Part shown: piece after piece, positions 18,709 through 56,478 of the stretch
How positions within the stretch are numbered: the first letter of the stretch is position 1
Layout of the letters: each line of letters opens with the position of its first letter
Source: Candidatus Omnitrophota bacterium
GTDB taxonomy: Bacteria > Omnitrophota > Gorgyraeia > Gygaellales > UBA12090
DNA: 64,000 nt
Assembly (NCBI GenBank): GCA_030674475.1
Contig: JAUSCZ010000014.1
Location: forward strand, 13,938-77,937
Direction of reading: 5' to 3'
The notes under the pieces: model-generated
Seen by the model: only the letters and a program-made list of their open reading frames with translations
The model's database searches: none
What the model was told of the DNA's origin: nothing
Made by a program: the position numbers and the translations under genes

Positions 18709-18757
18709 CCTGCCTGCCGGCAGGCAGGGTTTGGCTTCCTATAGCCAAAGCCATAAG
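18709..18757. repeat. composite REP-like element: CCTGCCTGCCGGCAGGCAGG palindrome plus GGTTTGGCTTCC-N3-AGCCAAAGCCATAAG element
   Basis: Perfect 20-bp palindrome at 18709-18728, with a second palindromic unit directly after it. Both families recur elsewhere in the window. Confidence 0.7.
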
Positions 18758-18818
18758 AAGTGAGGAGTTACGCGCCTCGCCATTTGGCGGCGGCTGACAA
18801 ACTAAAAGGAGTTAAAGA

Positions 18819-21669: not shown

Positions 21670-21713
21670 TATCAGCTTTCAGCTTTCAGCTGTCAGCCGA
21701 TAGCCGATAGCCG
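21670..21713. repeat. heptanucleotide tandem array abutting the waaA start codon
   Basis: TTCAGCT TTCAGCT GTCAGCC GATAGCC GATAGCC GATG. Ends directly in the ATG with no SD-like sequence. Confidence 0.8.
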
Positions 21714-23003
21714 ATGTTCATCCTTTACGATTTTATTTTTATAATTTTTGTTTTACTGTATTTGCCGGGTTTTATTTTTAGAGGAAAATTTCACCCGGGG
21801 TTTTTGAACCGTTTGGGATTTTTTCCGAAAGATGTCCAAAATAGCTTAGCCGGAAAGCGTCCAATATGGCTGCATATGGTAAGCGTGGGAGAGGCACAGG
21901 CCTTAAGGATTCTTCTGGAGAAACTGCGCAAGGAGTATCCGGACAGAAAAATTGCTCTTTCTACGGTTACCCCGACCGGAAATAAAATTGCCAGGTCAAT
22001 AGCTGTTGAAGGCGATTTAGTCTTTTATCTTCCTTTGGATATAAGTTTTATCGTTAGATCCGTGGTGGATTTGATTAATCCCTGTCTTTTTGTTATTGCC
22101 GAGACCGAAATCTGGCCAAACTTAATAATGTATCTTACTACACGCGACATTCCGATAATCAGCGTAAACAGCCGGATATCCGATAAGTCTTTTAAAAGCT
22201 ATGCACTGATTAAATTCCTGCTCCAGGGTATCTTAAACAAAATAAGCTTTTTTTGCGTCCAAACCCAGACGGATTCCCAGCGCCTGTTGGCTTTAGGGGT
22301 TAATCCAGAGAAGATAAAGCTGACCGGGAATATGAAATTTGATAACGCGGATTTCGCGGAGAAAAAAAACAACGCAGATTCCGCGGATACAAGAAAACGT
22401 ATGCTCGCTTTAAAAGAAAAGGATACTCTTTGGGTGGCGGGAAGCACGCATCCGGGCGAAGAAGAAATCATCCTGGGAGTGTATAAAAACTTATTGCCGG
22501 AATTTCCTTTTTTAAAACTCCTTATCGCCCCTCGCCATCCTGAGCGGGCCAGGGAGATAGAAAAAGTAGTTCTTAATTATGGTTTTGATTCCGTATTTAT
22601 TTCCAAACTGCGACCATCGACTATTGACCATCGACCATCGACTATTTTTATTCTGGATACTATCGGCCAGCTTAAGGATTTTTACGCTGCCTCAGACATT
22701 GTTTTTATAGGCGGCAGCCTGATAAGAAAGGGCGGGCAGAATATTTTAGAACCGGCCCTCTTTTCCAAGCCGATTATCTTTGGGCCGTATATGTTTAACT
22801 TTCGGGATATCGCTGAACTTTTTCTTGTCTCAGGCGCCGCGGTCTTAGTAAAAGATAAAGAGGAATTGAGAGAAAAGATAAAAGATTTGTTGCTTCATCC
22901 GGAGTCTGCCTTAGAACTTGGCCGCCGGGCCAAGGAGTTATTACTGAAGAACCAAGGGGCCAGCGAAAGAAATATGGAAATTATAAAACAAGTTTTGGGT
23001 TAA
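21714..23003 (+). CDS. waaA: 3-deoxy-D-manno-octulosonic acid (KDO) transferase
   Basis: IWLHMVSVGEAQAL and C-terminal GT motifs. N-terminus resembles E. coli WaaA. Contains an in-frame 21-nt heptamer-based duplication at 22611-22652 (RPSTIDH/RPSTIFI). Confidence 0.9.
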   Translation: MFILYDFIFIIFVLLYLPGFIFRGKFHPGFLNRLGFFPKDVQNSLAGKRPIWLHMVSVGEAQALRILLEKLRKEYPDRKIALSTVTPTGNKIARSIAVEGDLVFYLPLDISFIVRSVVDLINPCLFVIAETEIWPNLIMYLTTRDIPIISVNSRISDKSFKSYALIKFLLQGILNKISFFCVQTQTDSQRLLALGVNPEKIKLTGNMKFDNADFAEKKNNADSADTRKRMLALKEKDTLWVAGSTHPGEEEIILGVYKNLLPEFPFLKLLIAPRHPERAREIEKVVLNYGFDSVFISKLRPSTIDHRPSTIFILDTIGQLKDFYAASDIVFIGGSLIRKGGQNILEPALFSKPIIFGPYMFNFRDIAELFLVSGAAVLVKDKEELREKIKDLLLHPESALELGRRAKELLLKNQGASERNMEIIKQVLG

Positions 23004-25909: not shown

Positions 25910-25977
25910 AGCTATCAGCTATCAGCTATCAGTAATCAGCTGAAAGCCGAAAGCTGAAAGCCGAAAGCTGAAAGCCG
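25910..25977. repeat. heptanucleotide tandem array abutting the start codon of the GT4-GT9 gene
   Basis: AGCTATC x3, AGTAATC, then AGCTGAA/AGCCGAA alternating x5, ending ...AGCCGATG at the ATG. Confidence 0.8.
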
Positions 25978-28065
25978 ATGAATATTCTGCAAATATTGCC
26001 TGAACTTAATTACGGCGGGGTGGAGACCGGAACGGTGGACTTGGCTAAGTACTTAGTCAAGGCTCAGCATAAGGCGGTAGTGGTTTCCGCCGGAGGAGAA
26101 TTAGTAGATAAGCTTAAATGCTTGGGCGCTGTTCATTATTCTCTGGCAGTTAATAAAAAATCCTTATTTTCAATTGTCCGGGCTTGTTTTGAGCTGGTAA
26201 AGATTATTCAAAGAGAAGATATCCGGGTAGTCCATGCCCGTTCCCGGGTTCCGGCCTGGAGCGCTTATTTTGCCGCTAAGCTAACCAATGTCCCTTTTAT
26301 TACCACTTGCCATGGTTATTATTCCCGGCATATTTTAAGCCGGGTGATGGGCTGGGGAAAATTAGTGATTGTGCCCAGTCAGATAATCGGAAGGCGCATG
26401 ATTGATGATTTCGCGGTATCCCCGGAGAGGATAAGGTTGATACCGCGCGGTGTGGATGCCGAAAATTTTACCTTTATCTTACCTGAGGAAAAAAGCCGCA
26501 CCGAGTTCGTGATTGCTTTTATCGCCAGGATTACTCCGATAAAGGGACATCTTTATTTTATCAAGGCAATCCAGCGGGTTTACCGCAGTATTCCTAATAT
26601 TAAGGTCTGGATTATCGGCACCGCCCCCAAATCCAAGTTTCATTATAAAGAGGACCTGGAGATTCTGGTCAAGCGTTTGGGATTGGCGCATATCGTTGAA
26701 TTTTTAGGCAAGAGAAACGATATCCCTCAGCTTTTTTCTAAAATCAATCTTTTGGTTATGGCCTCAACTACCCACGAGGCCTTTGGCCGGGTGATTGTCG
26801 AGGCTCAAATCTCCGGGGTTCCGGTAGTGGCTACCCGGGTAGGAGGGGTGGTAGACATTGTCGAGGATGGCGTGGATGGCCTCCTGTGCGTTCCTAAAGA
26901 TTCTGAAGGTATGGCTGAGGCAATTATCAGGATTTTAAGGGATAATGAGCTAAGCTCTCTATTAGCCAAAAACGGCCATCTTAAAGCGCTTTCAAAATTC
27001 AACTTAGAGAAGATGGCTAAAGACACCCTGGAGGTTTATCAGGAGGCAGTTGGTTTTAAAAGAATTCTGATAATAAAACTGAGCGCTTTGGGCGACCTTA
27101 TCCTTTCGATTCCGGCCTTGAAGGCGATACGTAAGAAATACCATTCTCCTCATAAGATAACCCTGCTTACCGGAAAGGCGATAGCCGCGGTAGTAAGTAA
27201 TTGTCCTTATCTGGATGAGGTAATGGTGTATGATTTTAATGAGAGCGATAAAGGCATCTTCAAGCTTTTTCACCTGGGTAAGGAATTAAGAAGAAAGAAT
27301 TTTGATATGGTCGTTGACCTGCAGAATAATCGCAAGAGCCATATCCTCTGCGCCCTTTCTTTAGCCTCGCTAAGATGCGGCTATCAAAATAAGAAGTTTA
27401 GCTTTTTGCTTAATCGTAAGGTCAAAGAAGATAAATTTATCCTGGGCCCCCTGGAACATCAGTTCCGGGTTTTAAATCTGTTGGATATTGAACTCAAAGA
27501 CAGAAAGATTGAACTTTGGCCTTCAAAAGAGGATGAGAGATATATTGATGATTTTTTAAATTCAGAATGGTTGAGCGGGAGTCAGATTTTGGTGGGGGTC
27601 CACCTTAGTTCTTCCCAGAAATGGCTTACCAAGCGCTGGCCGCTGGAATATGCCGCCCATTTGGTTGAAGAGCTGGCTTTAAGGGATATTCGCGTGGTTT
27701 TAACCGGAGAAAGAATGCCTCAAAATGAGTTGAGAGTTTTTAACGAGATGGCCAAGAAGTCTAAGCCGATTATCGCCTGCGGAAAAACCACCATCAATCA
27801 GCTGGCCTGCCTGATTAAACGTTGTAATGTATTTATCTCAGGCGATACCGCGCCTTTACATATTGCCTCCGGAATCGGCACGCCGGTAATCGCGCTATTC
27901 GGCCCGACTGACCCGCGCCGGCATATCTCCTCGGAGAAAGACGCGTTGATATTAAAAAAAGACTTAGAGTGTCAGCCCTGCTATAAGCCAAAATGCGTAT
28001 CCATAGAGTGCATGAAGAAGATAAGCGTGGATGAGGTCAAAGAGGCGGTATTAAAGCTATTATGA
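25978..28065 (+). CDS. fusion of a GT4 glycosyltransferase (N-terminal) and an ADP-heptose:LPS heptosyltransferase (GT9, C-terminal)
   Basis: GT4 C-terminal motif EAFGRVIVEAQISGVPVVATRVGG. GT9 N-terminus RILIIKLSALGDLILSIPAL and C-terminus LHIASGIGTPVIALFGPTDP. Confidence 0.8.
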   Translation: MNILQILPELNYGGVETGTVDLAKYLVKAQHKAVVVSAGGELVDKLKCLGAVHYSLAVNKKSLFSIVRACFELVKIIQREDIRVVHARSRVPAWSAYFAAKLTNVPFITTCHGYYSRHILSRVMGWGKLVIVPSQIIGRRMIDDFAVSPERIRLIPRGVDAENFTFILPEEKSRTEFVIAFIARITPIKGHLYFIKAIQRVYRSIPNIKVWIIGTAPKSKFHYKEDLEILVKRLGLAHIVEFLGKRNDIPQLFSKINLLVMASTTHEAFGRVIVEAQISGVPVVATRVGGVVDIVEDGVDGLLCVPKDSEGMAEAIIRILRDNELSSLLAKNGHLKALSKFNLEKMAKDTLEVYQEAVGFKRILIIKLSALGDLILSIPALKAIRKKYHSPHKITLLTGKAIAAVVSNCPYLDEVMVYDFNESDKGIFKLFHLGKELRRKNFDMVVDLQNNRKSHILCALSLASLRCGYQNKKFSFLLNRKVKEDKFILGPLEHQFRVLNLLDIELKDRKIELWPSKEDERYIDDFLNSEWLSGSQILVGVHLSSSQKWLTKRWPLEYAAHLVEELALRDIRVVLTGERMPQNELRVFNEMAKKSKPIIACGKTTINQLACLIKRCNVFISGDTAPLHIASGIGTPVIALFGPTDPRRHISSEKDALILKKDLECQPCYKPKCVSIECMKKISVDEVKEAVLKLL

Positions 28066-28082: not shown

Positions 28083-28222
28083 CAAACACCAAATCCCAAA
28101 TTACAAATAATAATCAATAATCAAATCCCAATAACCAAACCAAGATAGATTCTTCGTTTGGATGATTGGTTATTGATGTTTGGAATTTATTTGGTGCTTG
28201 TTATTTGGTTATTGGTGATTCA
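28083..28222. repeat. heptamer-periodic long imperfect inverted repeat in the 5' leader of the GT4 gene
   Basis: Left arm AATAACC AAACACC AAATCCC AAATTAC.... Right arm GTTTGGA TGATTGG TTATTGA TGTTTGG ... TTGGTTATTGG. The arms are largely complementary. Confidence 0.65.
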
Positions 28223-28223
28223 G

Positions 28224-29336
28224 AATATGAATATTTTAATTCTGGCCAATCATTTTAATCCCGGAGGGATATCCAGCTATATCTTAAATTTGGCTCAAGG
28301 ATTGGCGGTGAAAGGACATCAGGTATCTGTCGGTTCCGCGGGCGGGGAGTGGGTGGAGAGGCTTAAGAAAAATAATATAGAACATATTAATCTGCCTTTA
28401 AAAACCAAATCCATAATCAGCCCTAAGCTTTTGTTTTCTTATTTTATTTTAAAGAAGGAGTTAAGGGATAAACGGATTGATATAATCCACAGCCAGACCC
28501 GGGTTACCAGCGTTTTGGCTTATTGGTTATCCCGAAAGACCCTGGTTCCTTTTATTTCTACCGCCCATGGTTTTTTTAAGCCGCGCTGGGTGAGGTTAAG
28601 ATTTCCCTGTTGGGGGGATTTGGTTATTGCTATCTCAGAGGCAGTCAAAGAGCATTTAATCGCGGATTTTAAGGTTATTCCGAATAAGATACGATTGGTG
28701 CATAATGGAATTAGCCTGAGCAGAGAACAGATAAACACCTGCCTGCCGGCAGGCAGGGATAACAGAGAACAGATAAGGAAAGGGCTTGGATTAAAAGAGG
28801 GGCCGGTGGTGGGAATTATTGCCCGGCTTTCTGAGGTAAAAGGACATATATATTTGATTCAGGCAATGAAGAAGGTTATCGAAGAAATCCCGGAGGCCCA
28901 ACTTTTGAGCGTGGGAGACGGAGCGATAAAAAAAGAATTAGAGAATCTCGCGCGCAGTTTGGGTGTCTTAGGGCGGATAAGTTTTGTTCCCGCGGTCGCG
29001 GACACCCGGGAGGCGCTCTCGGTAATGGATGTCTTTGTGATGCCCTCTTTGCAGGAAGGATTGGGTCTATCTATAATGGAGGCGATGCTTTCCGGACTGG
29101 CGGTAATCGCTTCTTCAGTCGGAGGCATACCGTCTTTGATTAAAGACGGACACACTGGGATATTAGTCGCGCCTAAAGACGCGGAGGCTTTAGCTCAGGC
29201 GATAATCAGCCTGTTGAGGGATAATAAAAAGGCATTCGAATTAGGCAAAAATGCCCGGGAATTGATTGTAAAAGAATTTTCTTTAGAGAGAATGGTTCAG
29301 GAGACAGAAGAGGTTTATCAACAATGCCTAAGGTAA
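28224..29336 (+). CDS. GT4 glycosyltransferase (group 1) carrying a 14-aa in-frame repeat-derived insertion
   Basis: GT4 motifs (EGLGLSIMEAMLSGLAVIASSVGG). Internal ATG at 28224 (MNILILANHFNPGG) is preferred. The track ORF starts at 28158 inside the inverted repeat. Confidence 0.8.
   Translation, partial: NMNILILANHFNPGGISSYILNLAQGLAVKGHQVSVGSAGGEWVERLKKNNIEHINLPLKTKSIISPKLLFSYFILKKELRDKRIDIIHSQTRVTSVLAYWLSRKTLVPFISTAHGFFKPRWVRLRFPCWGDLVIAISEAVKEHLIADFKVIPNKIRLVHNGISLSREQINTCLPAGRDNREQIRKGLGLKEGPVVGIIARLSEVKGHIYLIQAMKKVIEEIPEAQLLSVGDGAIKKELENLARSLGVLGRISFVPAVADTREALSVMDVFVMPSLQEGLGLSIMEAMLSGLAVIASSVGGIPSLIKDGHTGILVAPKDAEALAQAIISLLRDNKKAFELGKNARELIVKEFSLERMVQETEEVYQQCLR
28735..28762. repeat. 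REP-like palindrome CCTGCCTGCCGGCAGGCAGG inserted in-frame inside the GT4 CDS
   Basis: 28-nt insert flanked by 14-nt direct repeats CAGAGAACAGATAA (28721-28734 and 28763-28776). Net +42 nt, read as REQI-NTCLPAGRDN-REQI. Confidence 0.75.
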
Positions 29337-30348: not shown

Positions 30349-30463
30349 GACACATCGCAGGGACAAGGCTTCTAACGGGCCAGAGGGCCGTGCCTACCGG
30401 TAAGGAACCGAATAGCCAAAGCCAAGGAATTCTAATCCAGGGGGATATTAAACGAGGTGAGTA

Positions 30464-30853
30464 ATGAGAAAAGAAGTTTTAGATAATGAATTGGCTAAAA
30501 TAGAAAAGATTAGCAAAGAGTTTGATGTGAAAAAAGTATTTTTGTTTGGTTCGTGTCTCGAAAGCGTTGAGACGGCTAATGATATTGATATAGCAGTAGA
30601 GGGAATTAAGGCCAAGGACTTTTTTAAATACTATGGAAGAATCTCTATGGCTACAGATAATGAAGTTGACTTAGTTGATTTGGATGATATTAGAGAGCAT
30701 TTCCAGAAAAGAATTTTATCTAAAGGGAGGATTATATATGAAAGAGCAGTAAGAGCGATACAGGTGGATGATTTTATTTTAGATTCTTTGAAATTTCCAG
30801 TGGGTAAGATAGAAATCCTCCCCTTACCAAGGGGAGGCGGGGAGGGGTTATAA
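30464..30853 (+). CDS. minimal nucleotidyltransferase (MntA/Pol-beta superfamily), orphan
   Basis: FLFGSCLESVETANDIDIAV (GS-X9-DxD) motif. Its C-terminal 12 codons read into palindromic repeat copy 1. No HEPN partner follows. Confidence 0.6.
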   Translation: MRKEVLDNELAKIEKISKEFDVKKVFLFGSCLESVETANDIDIAVEGIKAKDFFKYYGRISMATDNEVDLVDLDDIREHFQKRILSKGRIIYERAVRAIQVDDFILDSLKFPVGKIEILPLPRGGGEGL

Positions 30854-31350
30854 CCAAGGCATTTAATAGACCAGAGCAAAAACTAAAGCGCAAGGCATTG
30901 AGACGCAATATGCCCTTAGCTGAAGTTATTTTATGGAGTAGATTAAAAGGCAAACAATTAGAAGGCTGTAAATTCAGAAGGCAGTATTTGAAATCCTCCC
31001 CTTAACAAGGGGAGGCGGGGTGGGGTCATTAAGCATTTTGTCATAGATTTTTATTCTACTGAATTAAGATTAGCCATAGAACTTGACGGAGAGTCTCACT
31101 ATGTCCAGGACGCGCCGTTGGCGGATAGGGAGAGACAAAACCAAATTAAGGTATTCGATGTTCAATTCCTGAGGTTTACGAACCAGGATATATATGAAAA
31201 TTTAGAAGGGGTATTATTAAAGATAGTTGAACAGATTAAACAAATTACCTCCCCTACCCCTCCTTGGTAAGGAGGGGATAAGAAATCTTTCTATTAACAA
31301 ATGAGGTAAGAAATCCTCCCCTTACCAAGGGGAGGCGGGGAGGGTAAGAA
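30813..31350. repeat. cluster of four ~40-bp palindromic repeats (AAATCCTCCCCTTACCAAGGGGAGGCGGGGAGGG), three direct and one inverted
   Basis: Copies at 30813-30853, 30991-31033, 31247-31286 (inverted) and 31311-31350. Copy 2 splits a DUF559 ORF and brings in a TAA stop. Confidence 0.75.
30868..31270 (+). pseudogene. DUF559 (Vsr-like endonuclease domain) gene disrupted by a palindromic repeat
   Basis: N-part RRNMPLAEVILWSRLKGKQLEGCKFRRQY. C-part VIDFYSTELRLAIELDGESHY...VQFLRFTNQDIYENLEGVL. The two parts match consecutive DUF559 blocks and are separated by the 43-nt repeat at 30991-31033. Confidence 0.65.
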
Positions 31351-31467: not shown

Positions 31468-32544
31468 ATGAAAATACTTATCGTTGAGGTCAATTGGCTG
31501 GGGGATGTGTTGTTTTCTACCCCGGCTATTAAGGCGTTGCGTAATAAATTTCCGGACAGCCGTATCAGTTGTCTGATTGTCCCCAGGGTAAAAGAGGTGT
31601 TAGAGAATAATCCCTCTATCGATGAGCTTATTATTAATGATGAGGAGGGGCTGCATAAAGGATTTTTGGGCGGGTTGAAATTAGTTGAAGCCTTAAGAGG
31701 CAAGAATTTTGATTTGGCGGTTTTTTTTCACCGTTCTTTCTCCCGGGCAGTAATCGCTTATCTGGCCGGAATTCCCCGGAGGCTGGGTTACGTTACCTGG
31801 AAAAGAAGATTCCTGCTGACCGAAGCCATACCAATGCCTAAAAAAGACAGCCTGCATCGGGTGGACCATTATCTAAACATAGTTAAACCCTTAGGATGCG
31901 CTGTGGATGATAGGCAATATGAATTTTTCTTGAGCGAAGAAGATGAAAAGTTCGCTGAGGATTTCTGGAGCAGGGAAGGCTTAAAAAAAGACGATTGGAT
32001 AGTTTGTTTGAATCCGGGAGGAAATTGGGGCCCTAAGCGCTGGCCAAAAGAGAATTTTGCTTTACTTGCTGACTGGCTTATCCGCGAGTATCACGCCAGG
32101 ATTATTTTTAGCGGTTCAAAAGCTGACACTTTGCTGATAGAAGAAATAACCCGGATGATGGAGCAAAAGGAATTTATCATATCCGCCGGATATACCAACC
32201 TTAAAGCTGCCGGGGCTATTTTTAAGAAGGCGAATTTGACGATTTCCGGGGATTCCGGGCCTTTGCATATTGCCGCCAGTGTCGGGGCAAATGTCCTGGC
32301 CTTATTCGGCCCGACCTCGCCCGCGATCACCGGGCCGATTGGTAAAGGCAGGATCGTGGTTATTCACAAGCCAGAGGGCGGTGGTTTGGCTTCCCCCAGC
32401 CAAAGCCATAAGCCGCTGGAGTGCCGGGTTCCTTGTTATGACGCGGCCTGTAATGATAACCGCTGTATGCGGGAAATTAAAGTTGAAGATGTATTGGCAG
32501 AGGTGAAGAAATTAGCGGAGGATGCTCACAGAAATGAAGTTTAG
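31468..32544 (+). CDS. ADP-heptose:LPS heptosyltransferase (GT9) with a 14-aa in-frame repeat insertion
   Basis: MKILIVEVNWLGDVLFSTPAIKAL and LHIAASVGANVLALFGPTSP motifs. The extra EGGGLASPSQSHKP is absent from the two paralogous GT9 C-termini in this window. Confidence 0.85.
   Translation: MKILIVEVNWLGDVLFSTPAIKALRNKFPDSRISCLIVPRVKEVLENNPSIDELIINDEEGLHKGFLGGLKLVEALRGKNFDLAVFFHRSFSRAVIAYLAGIPRRLGYVTWKRRFLLTEAIPMPKKDSLHRVDHYLNIVKPLGCAVDDRQYEFFLSEEDEKFAEDFWSREGLKKDDWIVCLNPGGNWGPKRWPKENFALLADWLIREYHARIIFSGSKADTLLIEEITRMMEQKEFIISAGYTNLKAAGAIFKKANLTISGDSGPLHIAASVGANVLALFGPTSPAITGPIGKGRIVVIHKPEGGGLASPSQSHKPLECRVPCYDAACNDNRCMREIKVEDVLAEVKKLAEDAHRNEV
32365..32415. repeat. GGTTTGGCTTCC-N3-AGCCAAAGCCATAAGCC element inserted in-frame in the heptosyltransferase CDS
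   Basis: 9-nt direct repeats CACAAGCCA / CATAAGCCG lie exactly 42 nt apart (HKP...HKP in protein). The same element occurs intergenically at 18728-18757 and as a tandem at 38721-38825. Confidence 0.65.
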
Positions 32545-33619
32545 GCGGCGGCAAAAAAATTACTTTAACAGAATATTGGTGGTGCGCACGGATAGAATCG
32601 GGGATGTGGTCTTAACCACTCCGGTTTTAAAAGCCTTAAGAGAAAATTATCCTGAAAGCCATATTGCTATGATGGTTAATCCCCAGACCAAAGAACTGCT
32701 TGAGGATAATCCTTATCTTAATGAGGTGATTGTGTATGATAAGGATAAAAAAGATAAAGGGATGCTGGGCTTCTGGAGATTTATCTTGGAATTAAAAAGA
32801 AAAAGATTTGATTTGGCTATAGTATTGCATACTAAAAACCGCCTTAATCTGATTACCTATCTTGCCGATATCAAGCGCCGGGCCGGCTACAAAAATAATA
32901 AATTCGGCTTTTTGCTCACGGATAAACTGATGGATATCCGCCCTCTGGGCCTAAAACACGAGGTTGATTATTGTCTGGACATTCTAAGAAAGCTTGGCCT
33001 GAAAATAAGTGATAAGATTCCTTATATAGCAGTTAAAAAGGAAGATATGGATTCGGTGGGTAATATTCTTGAGGCTGAGGGCATAGGTAGTTCGACTGCG
33101 CTCACCACAGGCCGCGATATTAAGATTGCCGCTATTCATCCCGGCTCAAGCTGTATTTCCAAACGCTGGCCAAGAGAGAGATTTGTGGTTTTGGCTAACC
33201 GGCTGGTTGAGGATTATGGCCTGAAGGTCATTCTGATTGCTTCGGGTGAAGAGAATGAGGCTATTGCTAATGAGATAGCCAAACAGATAAGATATCCGGT
33301 TCTGAATCTATCCGGAAAGTTATCTCTGGGCCAATTATCCGCGCTTTTAAAACGCTGTGTTATTTTTATTTCTAACGATTCCGGCCCGGTGCATATTGCC
33401 AGCGCCGTGGGCACGCCGGTAGTCTCTATCTTTGGCCGCAACCAGGCGGGTTTAAGCCCGGCGCGTTGGGCCCCGGTAGGGAGAAAAGATGCGTATCTGC
33501 ATAAAGAGGTGGGTTGCTCGATATGCCTGGCGCATAACTGTAATATCGGTTTTGACTGTCTGAAGGCCATAACCGTGGAGGATGTGTTAAAGGCAGTTGA
33601 CGATATCCTCAAGGCGTGA
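32522..33619 (+). CDS. ADP-heptose:LPS heptosyltransferase II-like (GT9)
   Basis: RILVVRTDRIGDVVLTTPVLKAL, VHIASAVGTPVVSIFG motifs. Confidence 0.85.
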   Translation: MLTEMKFRRRQKNYFNRILVVRTDRIGDVVLTTPVLKALRENYPESHIAMMVNPQTKELLEDNPYLNEVIVYDKDKKDKGMLGFWRFILELKRKRFDLAIVLHTKNRLNLITYLADIKRRAGYKNNKFGFLLTDKLMDIRPLGLKHEVDYCLDILRKLGLKISDKIPYIAVKKEDMDSVGNILEAEGIGSSTALTTGRDIKIAAIHPGSSCISKRWPRERFVVLANRLVEDYGLKVILIASGEENEAIANEIAKQIRYPVLNLSGKLSLGQLSALLKRCVIFISNDSGPVHIASAVGTPVVSIFGRNQAGLSPARWAPVGRKDAYLHKEVGCSICLAHNCNIGFDCLKAITVEDVLKAVDDILKA

Positions 33620-38720: not shown

Positions 38721-38825
38721 CAAGCCAAAGCCATAAGCCAGAGGGCGATGGTTTGCATTCCATATAAGCAAAGCCATAAGCCAGAGGGCGATGGTTTGCA
38801 TTCCATATAAGCAAAGCCATAAGCC
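38721..38825. repeat. ~44-bp tandem repeat x2.4 (AAGCAAAGCCATAAGCCAGAGGGCGATGGTTTGCATTCCATAT)
   Basis: Two full units (38721-38765, 38766-38808) and a partial third. The unit contains the AGCCAAAGCCATAAGCC core shared with the in-CDS insertion at 32365-32415. Followed by TTGACA at 38827. Confidence 0.8.
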
Positions 38826-51040: not shown

Positions 51041-51085
51041 GCTTATAGCTAATGGCTTTTCACTATAAGCCATAAGCCATAAGCA
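51041..51085. repeat. palindromic heptamer array ATGGCTT ATAGCTA ATGGCTT ... ATAAGCC ATAAGCC ATAAGCA upstream of hppA
   Basis: GGCTTAT-type heptamers on the left and their reverse complement ATAAGCC repeated on the right. Confidence 0.7.
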
Positions 51086-55647: not shown

Positions 55648-56478
55648 ATGTCTGACGCAAAATGTCCGGGGCAGAATCCCCAATATTGGAAGCCGGAAGA
55701 TGCCTTTGAGGTTAGCTGTCCTAATTGTAAGGAAATAGTTGAGTTTTTTAAGGATGAGCCCAAGAGGCGATGCCATAACTGTAAGCAAGAGGTAGTTAAT
55801 CCTAAGGTTGACTTTGGCTGCGCCCTTTGGTGCCCTAAGGCAGTTGACTGTATCGGTCAGGAGCGTTATCAACAATTATTGGCCGCGGCCAAGAGTCAGC
55901 CCAAGCCGGATAAATACCGGACTAAAAAAGACCTTCTGCTTTTTGAGATGGAAAAGTATTTCGGAGGTGATGAGCGCCGGATAAACCATGCCAGGAAGGT
56001 TTTGGAGTTTGCTGAGCAACTGCTTGAAAAAGAGCAGGCGGCTTGGGCTATGGGAAGCTCAACCCTGCCTACCGGCCAGGCAGGCACAGCCTGCCGGCCA
56101 GCCGATCCCCTGGTGGTTATTTCCGCGGCCATACTCCATGATATCGGAATACATAAGGCCCAAGAAAAATATAAAAGCAGTGCCGGGAATTACCAGGAGA
56201 TAGAGGGGCCTCCCATTGCCAGGGTTATTATGGAGAAGCTCCAGTTTAAAAAAGAGATAATTGACGAGGTCTGCGAGATTGTTGCCCATCATCATTCTCC
56301 GGGTAAGGTTGATACTCTTAATTTTAAAGTGCTTTATGACGCGGACTGGTTAGTCAATCTCAAGGATGAATTTGATACCAGTAGTAAAGAAAAACTGGCC
56401 AAAACAATTAATAAGGTATTTCTCACCTCTAGCGGGAAAGAATTAGCGAACCAGATTTATAGTAGGGGCGGGTTCTAA
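55648..56478 (+). CDS. zinc-ribbon plus HD-domain phosphohydrolase
   Basis: N-terminal CPxC...CxNC pairs. HD motifs H(N)H...ILHDIG...AHHHSP...YDADWL. Has an internal CCTGCCTACCGGCCAGGCAGG palindrome at 56066-56102. Confidence 0.65.
   Translation: MSDAKCPGQNPQYWKPEDAFEVSCPNCKEIVEFFKDEPKRRCHNCKQEVVNPKVDFGCALWCPKAVDCIGQERYQQLLAAAKSQPKPDKYRTKKDLLLFEMEKYFGGDERRINHARKVLEFAEQLLEKEQAAWAMGSSTLPTGQAGTACRPADPLVVISAAILHDIGIHKAQEKYKSSAGNYQEIEGPPIARVIMEKLQFKKEIIDEVCEIVAHHHSPGKVDTLNFKVLYDADWLVNLKDEFDTSSKEKLAKTINKVFLTSSGKELANQIYSRGGF

What the first reader, a model, noticed from the sequence alone, without database searches (positions are those of the whole stretch)
32365..32415. Second in-frame 42-nt repeat insertion, of a different repeat family, in a heptosyltransferase gene
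In the GT9 heptosyltransferase gene, the segment GAGGGCGGTGGTTTGGCTTCCCCCAGCCAAAGC lies between the 9-nt direct repeats CACAAGCCA (32365) and CATAAGCCG (32407). The repeats are exactly 42 nt apart, giving HKP-EGGGLASPSQS-HKP.

The two paralogous GT9 C-termini in this window read ILKKDLECQPCY and HKEVGCSICLAH and have no such insert at that position.

The inserted sequence belongs to the family GGTTTGGCTTCC-N3-AGCCAAAGCCATAAGCC. That family is also present at 18728-18757 after dprA, as a 44-bp tandem at 38721-38825, and as fragments at 30413 and 51063.

Two independent families therefore show the same net 42-nt in-frame insertion length, and both targets are LPS glycosyltransferases.
Basis: partly seen in the sequence, partly recalled or inferred. 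Interest (0 to 1): 0.7.

Follow-up and report, generated by a model that had tools for sequence, protein, structure and literature searches.

The report
42-nt hairpin repeat inserted in-frame
A 42-base mobile repeat made of two small hairpins has landed in-frame in a sugar-transferase gene, adding a floppy 14-residue loop. The same tiny element sits mostly inside ordinary protein genes across the phylum Omnitrophota, always read in one frame.

Summary
Window 32365-32415 carries a 42-nt segment between CACAAGCC and CATAAGCC inside a GT9 heptosyltransferase gene (31468-32544, +).

- **It is an insertion.** Four close orthologues have an empty site, xAT AAG CCG, and about 70 more distant ones lack the segment.
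- **What the insert is.** It is one copy of an Omnitrophota-wide family. The 42-nt unit forms two adjacent hairpins with compensatory base changes. It sits just 5' of an AYAA(GCC) target that resembles its own 5' end.
- **Where copies lie.** In about 190 loci from genomes and metagenomes, two thirds to three quarters of copies lie inside ORFs. These include enolase, pyruvate kinase, UvrA, ribosomal protein L25 and GltB. Nearly all are in sense frame 0 and encode KPEGxGLASxSQSH.
- **Length filter.** Copies with a 43/44-nt unit occur, with one doubtful exception, only outside ORFs.
- **Effect on the protein.** In the AF2 model the insert is the only low-confidence segment, so it is probably a tolerated surface loop.

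LPS genes are not a special target. The mobilising mechanism is unknown. A Y1 transposase is common in the phylum but showed no association with the element. The closest analogues are the Rickettsia palindromic elements, which are three times larger. I rate this a new variant of a known kind.

The parts
31468..32544 (+). Host gene: GT9 heptosyltransferase (WaaF-like, 'lipopolysaccharide heptosyltransferase II'), 358 aa
   Evidence: ORF. Pfam PF01075 at 121 bits. PDB relatives 3TOV (E = 3.5e-41) and 1PSW, heptosyltransferase II (E = 1.2e-25). Source names.
32366..32407 (+). The inserted 42-nt element, ACAAGCCAGAGGGCGGT|GGTTTGGCTTCCCCCAGCCAAAGCC. The junction is ambiguous by 1 nt, so 32365-32406 is equally valid. 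It encodes residues about 300-313.
   Evidence: Absent from the orthologous sites in L003, L065, L066 and L067. Covariance model hit at 69.8 bits. Also present in L001 and L002.
32366..32382 (+). Hairpin 1: A-Y-(A)-A-GCC [AGAG] GGC-N-R-T
   Evidence: Pair 5-19 of alignment A5 is CG in 31 copies, UA in 21 and other in 3. Fisher p = 5e-13. The GCC/GGC core was fixed by the search pattern.
32383..32407 (+). Hairpin 2: GG-TTTGGCT [TCCCCC] AGCCAAA-(G)-CC
   Evidence: 98.8% of cells are paired and 3 pairs show compensatory changes. Stem variants are listed. DNA fold energy is -9.8 kcal/mol.
32408..32414 (+). Pre-existing target ATAAGCC (part of codons His-Lys-Pro), which resembles the element's own 5' end
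   Evidence: All four empty sites read xAT AAG CCG, with T at the variable position. The left copy in the filled alleles has C.
18709..18763 (+). Intergenic copy after dprA. Its 5' module is replaced by the palindrome CCTGCCTGCCGGCAGGCAGG.
   Evidence: 37.6 bits, E = 6e-10.
38726..38825 (+). Intergenic head-to-tail array, 2.3 units of 43 nt (7-nt loop variant). The relative L003 has 3.3 units.
56029..56083 (-). Diverged composite copy, antisense, inside ORF 55648-56478
   Evidence: 20.2 bits, E = 1e-4. Not checked against orthologues.
30372..30406 (+). Weak degenerate copy in an intergenic spacer
   Evidence: 14.6 bits, E = 0.006.

Best explanation
**What it is.** The segment is a recent insertion of a tiny, non-autonomous mobile repeat that is widespread in the phylum Omnitrophota.

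**Unit and target.** The unit is 42 nt and consists of two adjacent hairpins. Hairpin 1 is AYAAGCC-AGAG-GGCNRT (17 nt). Hairpin 2 is GGTTTGGCT-TCCNNN-AGCCAAAGCC (25 nt). It inserts just 5' of a short target, AYAA(GCC), that resembles its own 5' end. This produces the apparent direct repeat. It also explains the head-to-tail arrays, since each new copy offers a fresh target-like sequence.

**Effect on this gene.** The copy landed in a His-Lys-Pro codon triplet of a WaaF-like heptosyltransferase. The unit is 14 codons long, and this orientation and frame encode a hydrophilic Gly/Ser/Pro-rich peptide. The gene therefore stays open and gains a disordered surface loop. That loop lies between the last beta-strand of the C-terminal domain and a Cys-rich tail. 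It is most likely a tolerated passenger.

**Family-wide bias.** Copies inside ORFs are filtered by selection. Only 42-nt units survive there, and overwhelmingly in sense frame 0. A strand bias at insertion probably adds to this.

**Shown:** the insertion polymorphism, the unit structure and covariation, the distribution, the frame bias and the predicted loop.

**Inferred:** mobility as such, neutrality, and selection as the filter.

**Unknown:** the mobilising enzyme or process.
For: **Filled versus empty sites.**
- The window, L001 and L002 carry the insert.
- L003, L065, L066 and L067 have the empty site, and the L007 orthologue also lacks the insert.
- About 70 orthologues lack it.
- The same element sits at a different position of a 60%-identical orthologue. 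It is in the same frame, with a compensatory stem change TTTGCCT/AGGCAAA (L004).
- A second filled/empty pair exists at window 25376.

**Distribution.**
- A genome scan found 57 stretches, nearly all in Omnitrophota MAGs.

**Structure.**
- Hairpin 2 is 98.8% paired.
- Five pairs of the two-hairpin structure show changes on both sides; 0 of 500 shuffles reach the observed covariation score.

**Host genes.**
- Hosts are unrelated housekeeping genes.
- Solved enolase and pyruvate kinase homologues show an exact 14-aa gap at the element.

**Frame bias.**
- 24 of 32 mid-gene events are in sense frame 0 (p = 3e-11).
- This was replicated in metagenomes: 46 sense frame 0 against 7 antisense and 0 in other sense frames.
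- Sense frame 1 usually contains a TAG. The other open frames are more hydrophobic.

**Length filter.**
- 68 mid-gene copies have the 37-nt core.
- One has a 38-nt core, in a doubtful 151-aa ORF.
- Of 24 noncoding copies, 8 have a 38- or 39-nt core.

**Protein model.**
- AF2 mean pLDDT is 90.9.
- The only segment below 50 is residues 304-317.

**Drift after insertion.**
- The L002 copy has a stem-breaking change.
Against: - No mobilising protein was identified.
- The Omnitrophota Y1 transposase has its own inverted-repeat ends. It is not flanked by this element in 2 of 3 loci.
- Near-consensus copies occur in genomes whose proteins are only 50-60% identical. This could also mean the sequence itself is under functional constraint.
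- Orientation bias persists outside ORFs: 26 co-oriented against 10 opposite (p = 0.011). Peptide-level selection therefore cannot be the whole story.
- Only two clean filled/empty pairs define the junction.
- The exact-pattern scans favour well-conserved copies. Pattern-independent copies in the same loci still give about two thirds in ORFs.
- Translation of the insert was not shown directly.
Confidence: 0.8

Rival explanations
1. There is no dedicated transposition. The unit is copied into genes by replication template switching, or by microhomology-mediated recombination with the tandem arrays. The nascent strand jumps to an array at an AYAAGCC microhomology, copies exactly one period and returns.
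For: - The target shares 7 of 8 nt with the element's 5' end in the GT9 case.
- The target's Y tends to match the element's Y (p = 0.0015).
- The inserts are exactly one period long.
- Arrays change copy number between close relatives: 2.3 units in the window against 3.3 in L003.
- No associated transposase was found.
Against: - At window 25376 the target similarity is only ATAG.
- Both hairpins keep pairing through compensatory changes across a phylum. This argues that the fold is recognised by something.
- Solitary copies far outnumber arrays.
- Strand bias is seen in noncoding DNA.
Confidence: 0.25
2. The element moves as single-stranded DNA through a HUH/Y1 transposase, in the manner of IS200/IS605 or REP-RAYT. 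The hairpins are the recognition sites, AY next to the hairpin foot acts as the cleavage or target motif, and insertion goes into the lagging-strand template.
For: - The hairpins show covariation.
- There is a three-way correlation between the 5' AY, the R-T at the foot of hairpin 2 and the target AY.
- G.T wobbles number 22 against 4 A.C, all on one strand.
- The element's sense strand is the G-rich leading-strand sequence, which is the lagging-strand template. GC skew is +0.15 and 54 of 55 ORFs are co-oriented.
- Noncoding copies show orientation bias.
- A conserved 163-aa Y1 transposase is widespread in Omnitrophota.
Against: - That transposase is bounded by its own unrelated inverted repeats, AAGACCGTTTCTA/TAGAAACGGTCTT.
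- It has no family copies within 10 kb in 2 of 3 loci.
- The element has no GTAG or CGTC tag.
- Copies form direct tandem arrays rather than inverted doublets.
- No Y1 gene was found among the 20 window ORFs scanned against Pfam or by a phmmer scan of all window ORFs.
Confidence: 0.25
3. The segment is a selected functional module. It could be a useful peptide linker or tag, or an mRNA hairpin that tunes translation or stability. On this view its spread reflects benefit rather than selfish mobility.
For: - Copies show an extreme bias for one frame.
- Sequence is strongly conserved across deep divergence.
- Wobble pairs fall on the mRNA-sense strand.
- Copies are co-oriented with transcription even outside ORFs.
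Against: - Presence and absence vary among orthologues that are 85-94% identical.
- Host proteins and insertion positions are unrelated.
- The loop is predicted to be disordered.
- Antisense and noncoding copies exist.
- The L002 copy has lost a stem pair.
- There is no Rfam match.
Confidence: 0.1
4. The segment is ancestral and was lost in the other orthologues, or it is an assembly artefact.
For: Only the direct repeats, which could in principle mediate precise deletion.
Against: - Only the window, L001 and L002 carry it, among about 70 orthologues.
- The same 42 nt occurs in dozens of unrelated genes and in spacers.
- It was recovered from three independent assemblies.
Confidence: 0.02

Closest known systems
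Rickettsia palindromic elements (RPE; Ogata et al. 2000, as summarised in PMC2229807 and PMC10969869)
   Same: - Both are non-autonomous palindromic repeats.
- Both are found in spacers and inserted in-frame in conserved, unrelated protein genes.
- Both are read in a consistent frame to give a conserved peptide.
- In both cases the insert is thought to be tolerated on protein surfaces.
   Different: - RPEs are 105-146 bp; this unit is 42 nt.
- RPEs are confined to Rickettsia; this family is confined to Omnitrophota.
- There is no sequence similarity.
- Here most copies, about two thirds to three quarters, lie in ORFs.
- Head-to-tail arrays are common here.
- The fold here is two small hairpins rather than one long stem.
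Small dispersed repeats (SDR) of Nostocaceae (Elhai et al. 2008, Genome Res 18:1484; paper not held, known from citations in PMC4390886 and PMC5861425 and from memory)
   Same: - Both are very small repeats, well below 100 nt, with signs of mobility.
- Both insert precisely at a short specific sequence.
- Neither has an identified transposase.
- From memory only: the host genomes are also rich in heptamer tandem repeats.
   Different: - The SDRs are 21-27 nt and cyanobacterial.
- They are reported to insert into HIP1 (GCGATCGC).
- A dominant in-frame coding location has not been reported, to my knowledge.
REP / REPIN elements with RAYT transposases (PMC3116915, PMC3733652)
   Same: - Both are short hairpin repeats in many copies.
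- Both show compensatory stem changes.
- A Y1 (RayT-like) gene family is present in the same phylum.
   Different: - REPs are extragenic.
- REPs carry a GTAG or CGTC tag.
- REPs act as inverted doublets.
- REPs flank their RAYT gene.
- None of these four features was found here.
MITEs such as Correia/NEMIS, ERIC and RUP (PMC2229807)
   Same: Both are small non-autonomous elements that are sometimes fused in-frame to ORFs.
   Different: - MITEs are about 100-200 bp.
- MITEs have terminal inverted repeats and a defined target duplication (often TA).
- This unit has no terminal inverted repeats and is less than half that size.

Membership tests
Glycosyltransferase family 9 (host gene) | Match to the GT9 profile and to solved heptosyltransferases | tested here: met
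   PF01075 at 121 bits against a cutoff of 22. 3TOV E = 3.5e-41; 1PSW (heptosyltransferase II) E = 1.2e-25. The AF2 model has pTM 0.89 and alternating strand-helix secondary structure; it was not compared with solved folds.
Rickettsia palindromic elements | In-frame insertion of a palindromic repeat into conserved protein genes, read in a consistent frame | tested here: met
Rickettsia palindromic elements | Length 105-146 bp, one long stem-loop with terminal inverted repeats, Rickettsia lineage | tested here: not met
   The unit is 42 nt with two short hairpins. Hosts are Omnitrophota MAGs. The features of RPEs are taken from PMC2229807.
REP/REPIN-RAYT | Short imperfect palindrome with compensatory stem variation | tested here: met
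REP/REPIN-RAYT | Extragenic location | tested here: not met
   About 66-75% of copies lie inside ORFs of at least 150 aa.
REP/REPIN-RAYT | GTAG or CGTC tetranucleotide at one end of the palindrome (PMC3733652) | tested here: not met
   The consensus AYAAGCCAGAGGGCNRTGGTTTGGCTTCCNNNAGCCAAAGCC has neither tag next to a stem.
REP/REPIN-RAYT | Inverted doublets (REPIN), with copies flanking a RAYT gene | tested here: not met
   Arrays are head-to-tail. Of 3 Y1-transposase loci, 2 have no copy within 10 kb and the third has copies 1.4 kb away.
MITE | Terminal inverted repeats | tested here: not met
   The ends AYAAGCC... and ...CAAAGCC are not complementary to each other.
MITE | Target-site duplication of fixed length | tested here: inconclusive
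   The flanking AYAAG(CC) repeat is part element and part pre-existing target. Only two clean filled/empty pairs are available.
IS200/IS605-type single-strand transposition | Strand-specific insertion next to a short target recognised through the hairpin foot, catalysed by a Y1 HUH enzyme | not testable with these tools
   The indirect signs are compatible: strand bias and covariation of the AY motifs with the foot of hairpin 2. No enzyme link was found.
Any Rfam RNA family | Match at the gathering score | tested here: not met
   There are 0 matches in the whole window.

The most novel reading that the evidence does not exclude
This may be the smallest known coding-compatible mobile element. 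It is a 42-nt double hairpin that has adapted to live inside protein-coding sequence. It is 14 codons long, has no stop codon in its usual frame and encodes a benign linker. On this reading it spreads phylum-wide through an unidentified strand-specific mechanism that homes to AYAA(GCC) sites. It would then be a steady source of new surface loops and linkers in Omnitrophota proteins. A second, unrelated palindromic family with a 42-nt core in the same genomes hints at a shared length-measuring machinery.
Probability: 0.4. Interest if true: 0.8.

Novelty: new variant of a known kind. Interest (0 to 1): 0.68.

Why it matters
If confirmed on closed genomes, the RPE phenomenon of selfish DNA inside protein genes would not be a Rickettsia curiosity. 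It would recur, in a far more compact and more coding-biased form, in a large environmental phylum.

- **A tractable system for mobility.** The element offers a 42-nt unit, a clear fold and many filled/empty sites. That makes it possible to ask how very small repeats move without terminal inverted repeats.
- **A natural experiment in protein tolerance.** Dozens of housekeeping enzymes each carry a 14-residue loop insertion.
- **Practical consequences.** The elements break assemblies. They create apparent indels in marker proteins used for phylogeny. They can also mislead gene callers and homology-based annotation in Omnitrophota MAGs.

Tried and rejected
- **Ancestral segment or artefact.** Rejected.
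- **LPS-gene targeting.** Rejected, because the hosts are diverse housekeeping genes.
The palindrome in the GT4 gene is only +18 nt net relative to L003.
- **Transposase in the window.** Pfam scans of 20 window ORFs found no transposase.
- **First phmmer search.** IS200 and RAYT queries written from memory found nothing in the first 540 kb. This was a weak test.
- **Second phmmer search.** Over 1.3 Mb it gave one Y1 transposase. Follow-up showed a phylum-wide family with its own inverted-repeat ends and no flanking copies of this element. The REP-RAYT association is therefore not supported.
- **Protein-database search.** A tandem consensus peptide returned only 6 hits. A 14-aa match is too short for that tool, so the result is uninformative.
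- **Rfam.** No family matched.
- **First structural model.** A single 11-bp hairpin that included the 3' AY was replaced by the two-hairpin model. Pair 5-19 covaries better than pair 19-48.
- **Third candidate filled/empty site.** Window 25254 against L002 could not be interpreted. That assembly is error-prone and the copy is diverged.
- **Literature.** No description of this element in Omnitrophota was found. Elhai 2008 is not in the library.
Full report
**Observation**

Window 32365-32415 reads CAC AAG CCA GAG GGC GGT GGT TTG GCT TCC CCC AGC CAA AGC CAT AAG CCG. It lies in frame in a 358-aa ORF, 31468-32544 on the + strand.

That ORF is a family 9 glycosyltransferase. Pfam PF01075 scores 121 bits. 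The solved relatives are 3TOV and the heptosyltransferase II structure 1PSW. Sources name its relatives lipopolysaccharide heptosyltransferase II of Candidatus Omnitrophota.

The two 9-mers are 42 nt apart and share 7 of 9 bases. The family pattern has 2 matches in the window against 0.00 expected.

- 18728-18759 is a real copy.
- The array at 38726-38825 has a period of 43, not 44, with 2.3 units.
- The fragment at 30413 is a weak degenerate copy (E = 0.006).
- The one at 51063 is only an ATAAGCC heptamer run.

**It is an insertion**

I aligned the protein with 21 and then 71 homologues. Only one fragment, P0033, shares the 14 residues. It comes from an 84-kb ENA contig and is 91% identical.

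The close orthologues P0001, P0003, P0004, P0007 and P0050 run straight from ...(M/I) to (H/R/Y)KP(L/I). P0005 and P0006 also lack the segment but read QKD at that point.

At the DNA level four empty sites read ATG CAT AAG CCG, ATG CAT AAG CCG, ATG CGT AAG CCG and ATA TAT AAG CCG. The variable position is T in all four empties and in the right-hand repeat of the filled alleles. It is C in the left-hand repeat of both filled alleles.

The most economical reading is that the right repeat, ATAAGCC, is the original target. The left one, ACAAGCC, then arrived as the 5' end of the insert.

The filled allele was recovered in three independent assemblies: the window, a Logan contig and the ENA contig. 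It is therefore not an artefact.

**The same element elsewhere in the same gene family**

P0045 is a 60%-identical orthologue from another Omnitrophota MAG. It has a 14-aa insert at a different position, residue 240. I predicted its DNA from the peptide and then read it: CGC CAG CCA GAG GGC AGT AGT TTG CCT TCC GAT AGG CAA AGC CAC CAG CCG.

It has the same frame and the same 42-nt spacing of flanking repeats. The stem is changed on both sides, from TTTGGCT/AGCCAAA to TTTGCCT/AGGCAAA.

Two further orthologues carry unrelated inserts:

- P0046 has 42 nt.
- P0002 has 48 nt, made of a 42-nt palindrome plus a 6-nt repeat ATCGGC at the conserved GP-IG-KG motif.

**Family census**

I scanned one genome per species with CCAGAGGGCNNTNGTTTGNNTTCC. 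This returned 57 stretches, almost all in Omnitrophota MAGs. A few were in bins labelled as other phyla. One of these (L021) shares flanking sequence with an Omnitrophota sigma-54 locus. Its label may therefore be a binning or classification error; this is an inference.

The consensus is N-A-Y-A-A-G CCAGAGGGC NRT GGTTTGGCT TCC NNN AGCCAAA GCC A-Y-A-A. Head-to-tail arrays of period 42-44 are frequent.

A covariance model built from 55 copies was then searched against the data:

- In the window it finds copies at 32363, 38730, 38787 and 18709 on the + strand.
- It also finds a diverged composite copy at 56029-56083 on the - strand, inside ORF 55648-56478.
- It gives 83 hits in 426 kb of related loci.
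- This suggests roughly one locus per 16-24 kb, a rough and biased estimate.

**Structure**

Hairpin 2, GG-TTTGGCT [TCCNNN] AGCCAAA-(G)-CC, is 98.8% paired with three covarying pairs. Stem variants include TTTGCCT/AGGCAAA, TTTGGTT/AACCAAA, TTTGACT/AGTCAAA, TTGGGCT/AGCCCAA and TGCGGCT/AGCCGCA.

A second covariation is stronger still. Position -4 of the 5' AYAAG pairs with the R of NRT. It is C-G in 31 copies, T-A in 21 and other in 3 (Fisher p = 5e-13, and 3e-9 among solitary copies). This closes hairpin 1, A-Y-(A)-A-GCC [AGAG] GGC-N-R-T.

The two hairpins together span exactly 42 nt. That is also the span the empty sites say was inserted.

G.T wobbles number 22 against 4 A.C. The strand that folds is therefore the one shown, which is the gene-sense strand in most copies. 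There is no Rfam family match anywhere in the window.

**Where the copies sit**

In the genome set most copies lie inside long ORFs. Pfam identifies the following hosts.

| Orientation and frame | Host genes |
|---|---|
| Sense | fmt, spermidine synthase, an AddB-like nuclease, enolase (twice), sulfite reductase, LpxL/ELM1, pyruvate kinase, UvrD, CheA, ABC-F, GltB, UvrA, a SpoU methylase, ribosomal protein L25/TL5, GvpL/F, ETF-alpha |
| Antisense | a DAO oxidoreductase, sigma-54, RecQ, a TrmA-like methylase |
| Sense frame 1 | GatA, in a copy whose loop lacks the usual TAG |

LPS glycosyltransferases are therefore not a special target. They simply dominate this window.

Alignments to solved enolase and pyruvate kinase show an exact 14-residue gap at the element.

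Counting independent mid-gene events:

| Data set | Sense frame 0 | Other sense frames | Antisense | Gene ends, sense frame 0 | Noncoding or short ORFs | Source |
|---|---|---|---|---|---|---|
| Genome scan | 24 of 32 (p = 3e-11 against 1/5) | 2 | 6 | not tallied | not tallied | |
| Metagenome scan | 46 | 0 | 7 | 18 | 22 | |
| Copies not selected by the pattern, same loci (mid-gene and gene-end together) | 29 | 1 | 15 | included in the other columns | 23 | |

The six reading frames differ in how tolerable they are:

- Sense frame 0 gives HKPEGSGLASDSQSHK, with mean hydropathy -1.54.
- One sense frame usually contains a TAG.
- The remaining frames are more hydrophobic.

Unit length is filtered in the same way. 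Sixty-eight mid-gene copies have the 37-nt core, which gives a 42-nt unit. One has a 38-nt core, in a doubtful 151-aa ORF. In noncoding DNA, 8 of 24 copies have 38 or 39 nt. Read-through translation, rather than removal, is the simplest explanation.

**Strand bias**

Outside ORFs, 26 loci are co-oriented with their neighbouring genes and 10 are opposite (p = 0.011). Gene orientation in these genomes is extremely one-sided: 54 of 55 long ORFs in the window lie on the + strand.

The + strand also has a GC skew of +0.13 to +0.17 throughout. The folding strand of the element is therefore the leading-strand sequence, which is the lagging-strand template. This fits a single-strand mechanism. It fits an RNA-level constraint equally well.

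**Effect on the protein**

AlphaFold2 with 72 sequences gives a mean pLDDT of 90.9 and a pTM of 0.89. The only segment below 50 is residues 304-317, which is the insert.

It follows strand 296-300 and precedes an invariant Cys-rich motif, C319-x2-PC-x4-C-x4-C. It is best read as a disordered surface loop and probably a tolerated passenger. The copy in L002 has already lost a stem pair, AGCCAAA to ATCCAAA, at about the genome-wide divergence.

**Further polymorphisms nearby**

Comparing the window with three syntenic relatives shows several more differences:

- There are 42 extra nt of the same superfamily, antisense, in the LpxL/ELM1 gene of L003 and L002. The window is empty at about 25376. 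In element orientation the site reads TACGCCG^ATAGAA, so the target there is only ATAG.
- One more array unit (43 nt) is present in L003.
- The window has 24 extra nt at 33085-33108 in the second GT9 gene. These are half of another palindromic family, B.
- Indels inside genes are mostly multiples of three.

**Mechanism**

What moves the element is not established.

A 163-aa Y1 transposase (PF01797, 63.6 bits) lies on one element-bearing contig. It belongs to a family that is widespread in Omnitrophota and that JGI names RayT.

However, it is bounded by its own 13-nt inverted repeats, AAGACCGTTTCTA/TAGAAACGGTCTT. Two of three loci have no copy of the element within 10 kb. The features that define REP-RAYT systems are extragenic location, a GTAG or CGTC tag, inverted doublets and a flanking RAYT gene. 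None of these is met here.

Template switching into arrays at the AYAAGCC microhomology remains a live alternative. I give each specific mechanism about 0.25. I give 0.8 to the general statement that this is a mobile repeat tolerated as an in-frame loop.

**Comparison and novelty**

The closest known phenomenon is the Rickettsia palindromic element. RPEs are 105-146 bp repeats inserted in-frame in conserved genes (PMC2229807, PMC10969869). In size and in the absence of a known transposase, the closest match is the 21-27-nt small dispersed repeats of Nostocaceae. I know these only from citations (PMC4390886, PMC5861425) and from memory.

This family differs from both in several ways:

- Its size is 42 nt.
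- It has a two-hairpin fold.
- It forms tandem arrays.
- It spreads across a whole phylum.
- Most copies lie in coding sequence, in one frame.

I found no description of it in the paper library. I rate it a new variant of a known kind, with interest about 0.68.

Noticed in passing
window 56029-56083 (- strand), inside ORF 55648-56478 (+): A diverged composite copy lies antisense inside a protein gene. It combines a CCTGCC..GGCAGG palindrome with GGTTGAGCTTCC-CAT-AGCCCAAGCC and encodes ...AAWAMGSSTLPTGQAGTAC... The model scores it at 20 bits, E = 1e-4.
   Followed up: partly
window 33085-33108, in the second GT9 gene (32522-33619): There are 24 extra nt relative to L003, AGGTAGTTCGACTGCGCTCACCAC. 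This is half of a second palindromic family, B, with the form TCGACTGCGCTCACC...GAGCGAAGTCGAA. Full family-B copies have a 42-nt core, as in L007:2694-2741 (inside the GT9 orthologue) and L002:16559-16606.
   Followed up: partly
window 28731-28759, in the GT4 gene 28158-29336; also 18702, 45130, 48264, 59926: A perfect palindrome family, CCTGCCTGCCGG(C/T)AGGCAGG. One copy lies inside a glycosyltransferase gene, where the region is +18 nt net relative to L003. In some copies, such as L042 and window 18702, it replaces hairpin 2 behind the same GGGCAAT module.
   Followed up: partly
window, many intergenic spacers (for example 2473, 7407, 21672-21715, 25910-25978, 41559, 51065): Short tandem heptamer repeats (AGCCGAA, AGCTGAT, ATAAGCC and others) fill many spacers. 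The element's own ends, AAGCCAY, are in register with such heptamers, and 42 = 6 x 7.
   Followed up: no
whole window: Fifty-four of 55 long ORFs are on the + strand, and GC skew is +0.13 to +0.17 throughout. This is an unusually strong strand asymmetry.
   Followed up: partly
window 30812-30851, 30990-31029, 31310-31349: A 40-nt G-rich repeat, GAAATCCTCCCCTTACCAAGGGGAGGCGGGGAGGGG, occurs three times in the spacer upstream of the GT9 gene. There are indels relative to L002.
   Followed up: no
L188:9860-10800, L190:250-1080, L191:9860-10720: A 163-aa Y1 transposase (PF01797) is widespread in Omnitrophota. It is bounded by conserved inverted repeats, AAGACCGTTTCTA ... TAGAAACGGTCTT, and looks like a self-contained IS-like unit. 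Many homologues sit on very short contigs.
   Followed up: partly
P0007 (2.16-Mb ENA contig) versus window 31468-33619: In one relative the two adjacent GT9 genes are called as a single 494-aa product. This may reflect loss of the stop codon or a frameshift at the 23-nt overlap.
   Followed up: no
L007:1821-2903 versus window 31468-32544: L007 is about 94% identical to the window over 4.3 kb. Around the insertion site, however, its GT9 reads IGKGKIKIIQKDIG, like more distant orthologues. This suggests a mosaic or recombinant segment.
   Followed up: no
L085 (metagenome contig Ga0315282_10038162), 1164-aa ORF: A single long ORF holds three sense copies and four diverged antisense copies of the element.
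   Followed up: no
L020:4097-4228 and L031:4575-4652: A longer composite variant occurs in two different genes of two genomes, ETF-alpha/ferredoxin and GvpL/F. Its form is ...GGTTTGGCTTCC-RACAGGACAGAAGAACGT-GGTTTGCCTTCCGTTAGGCAAAGCC. It appears to be a distinct subfamily or a nested insertion.
   Followed up: no
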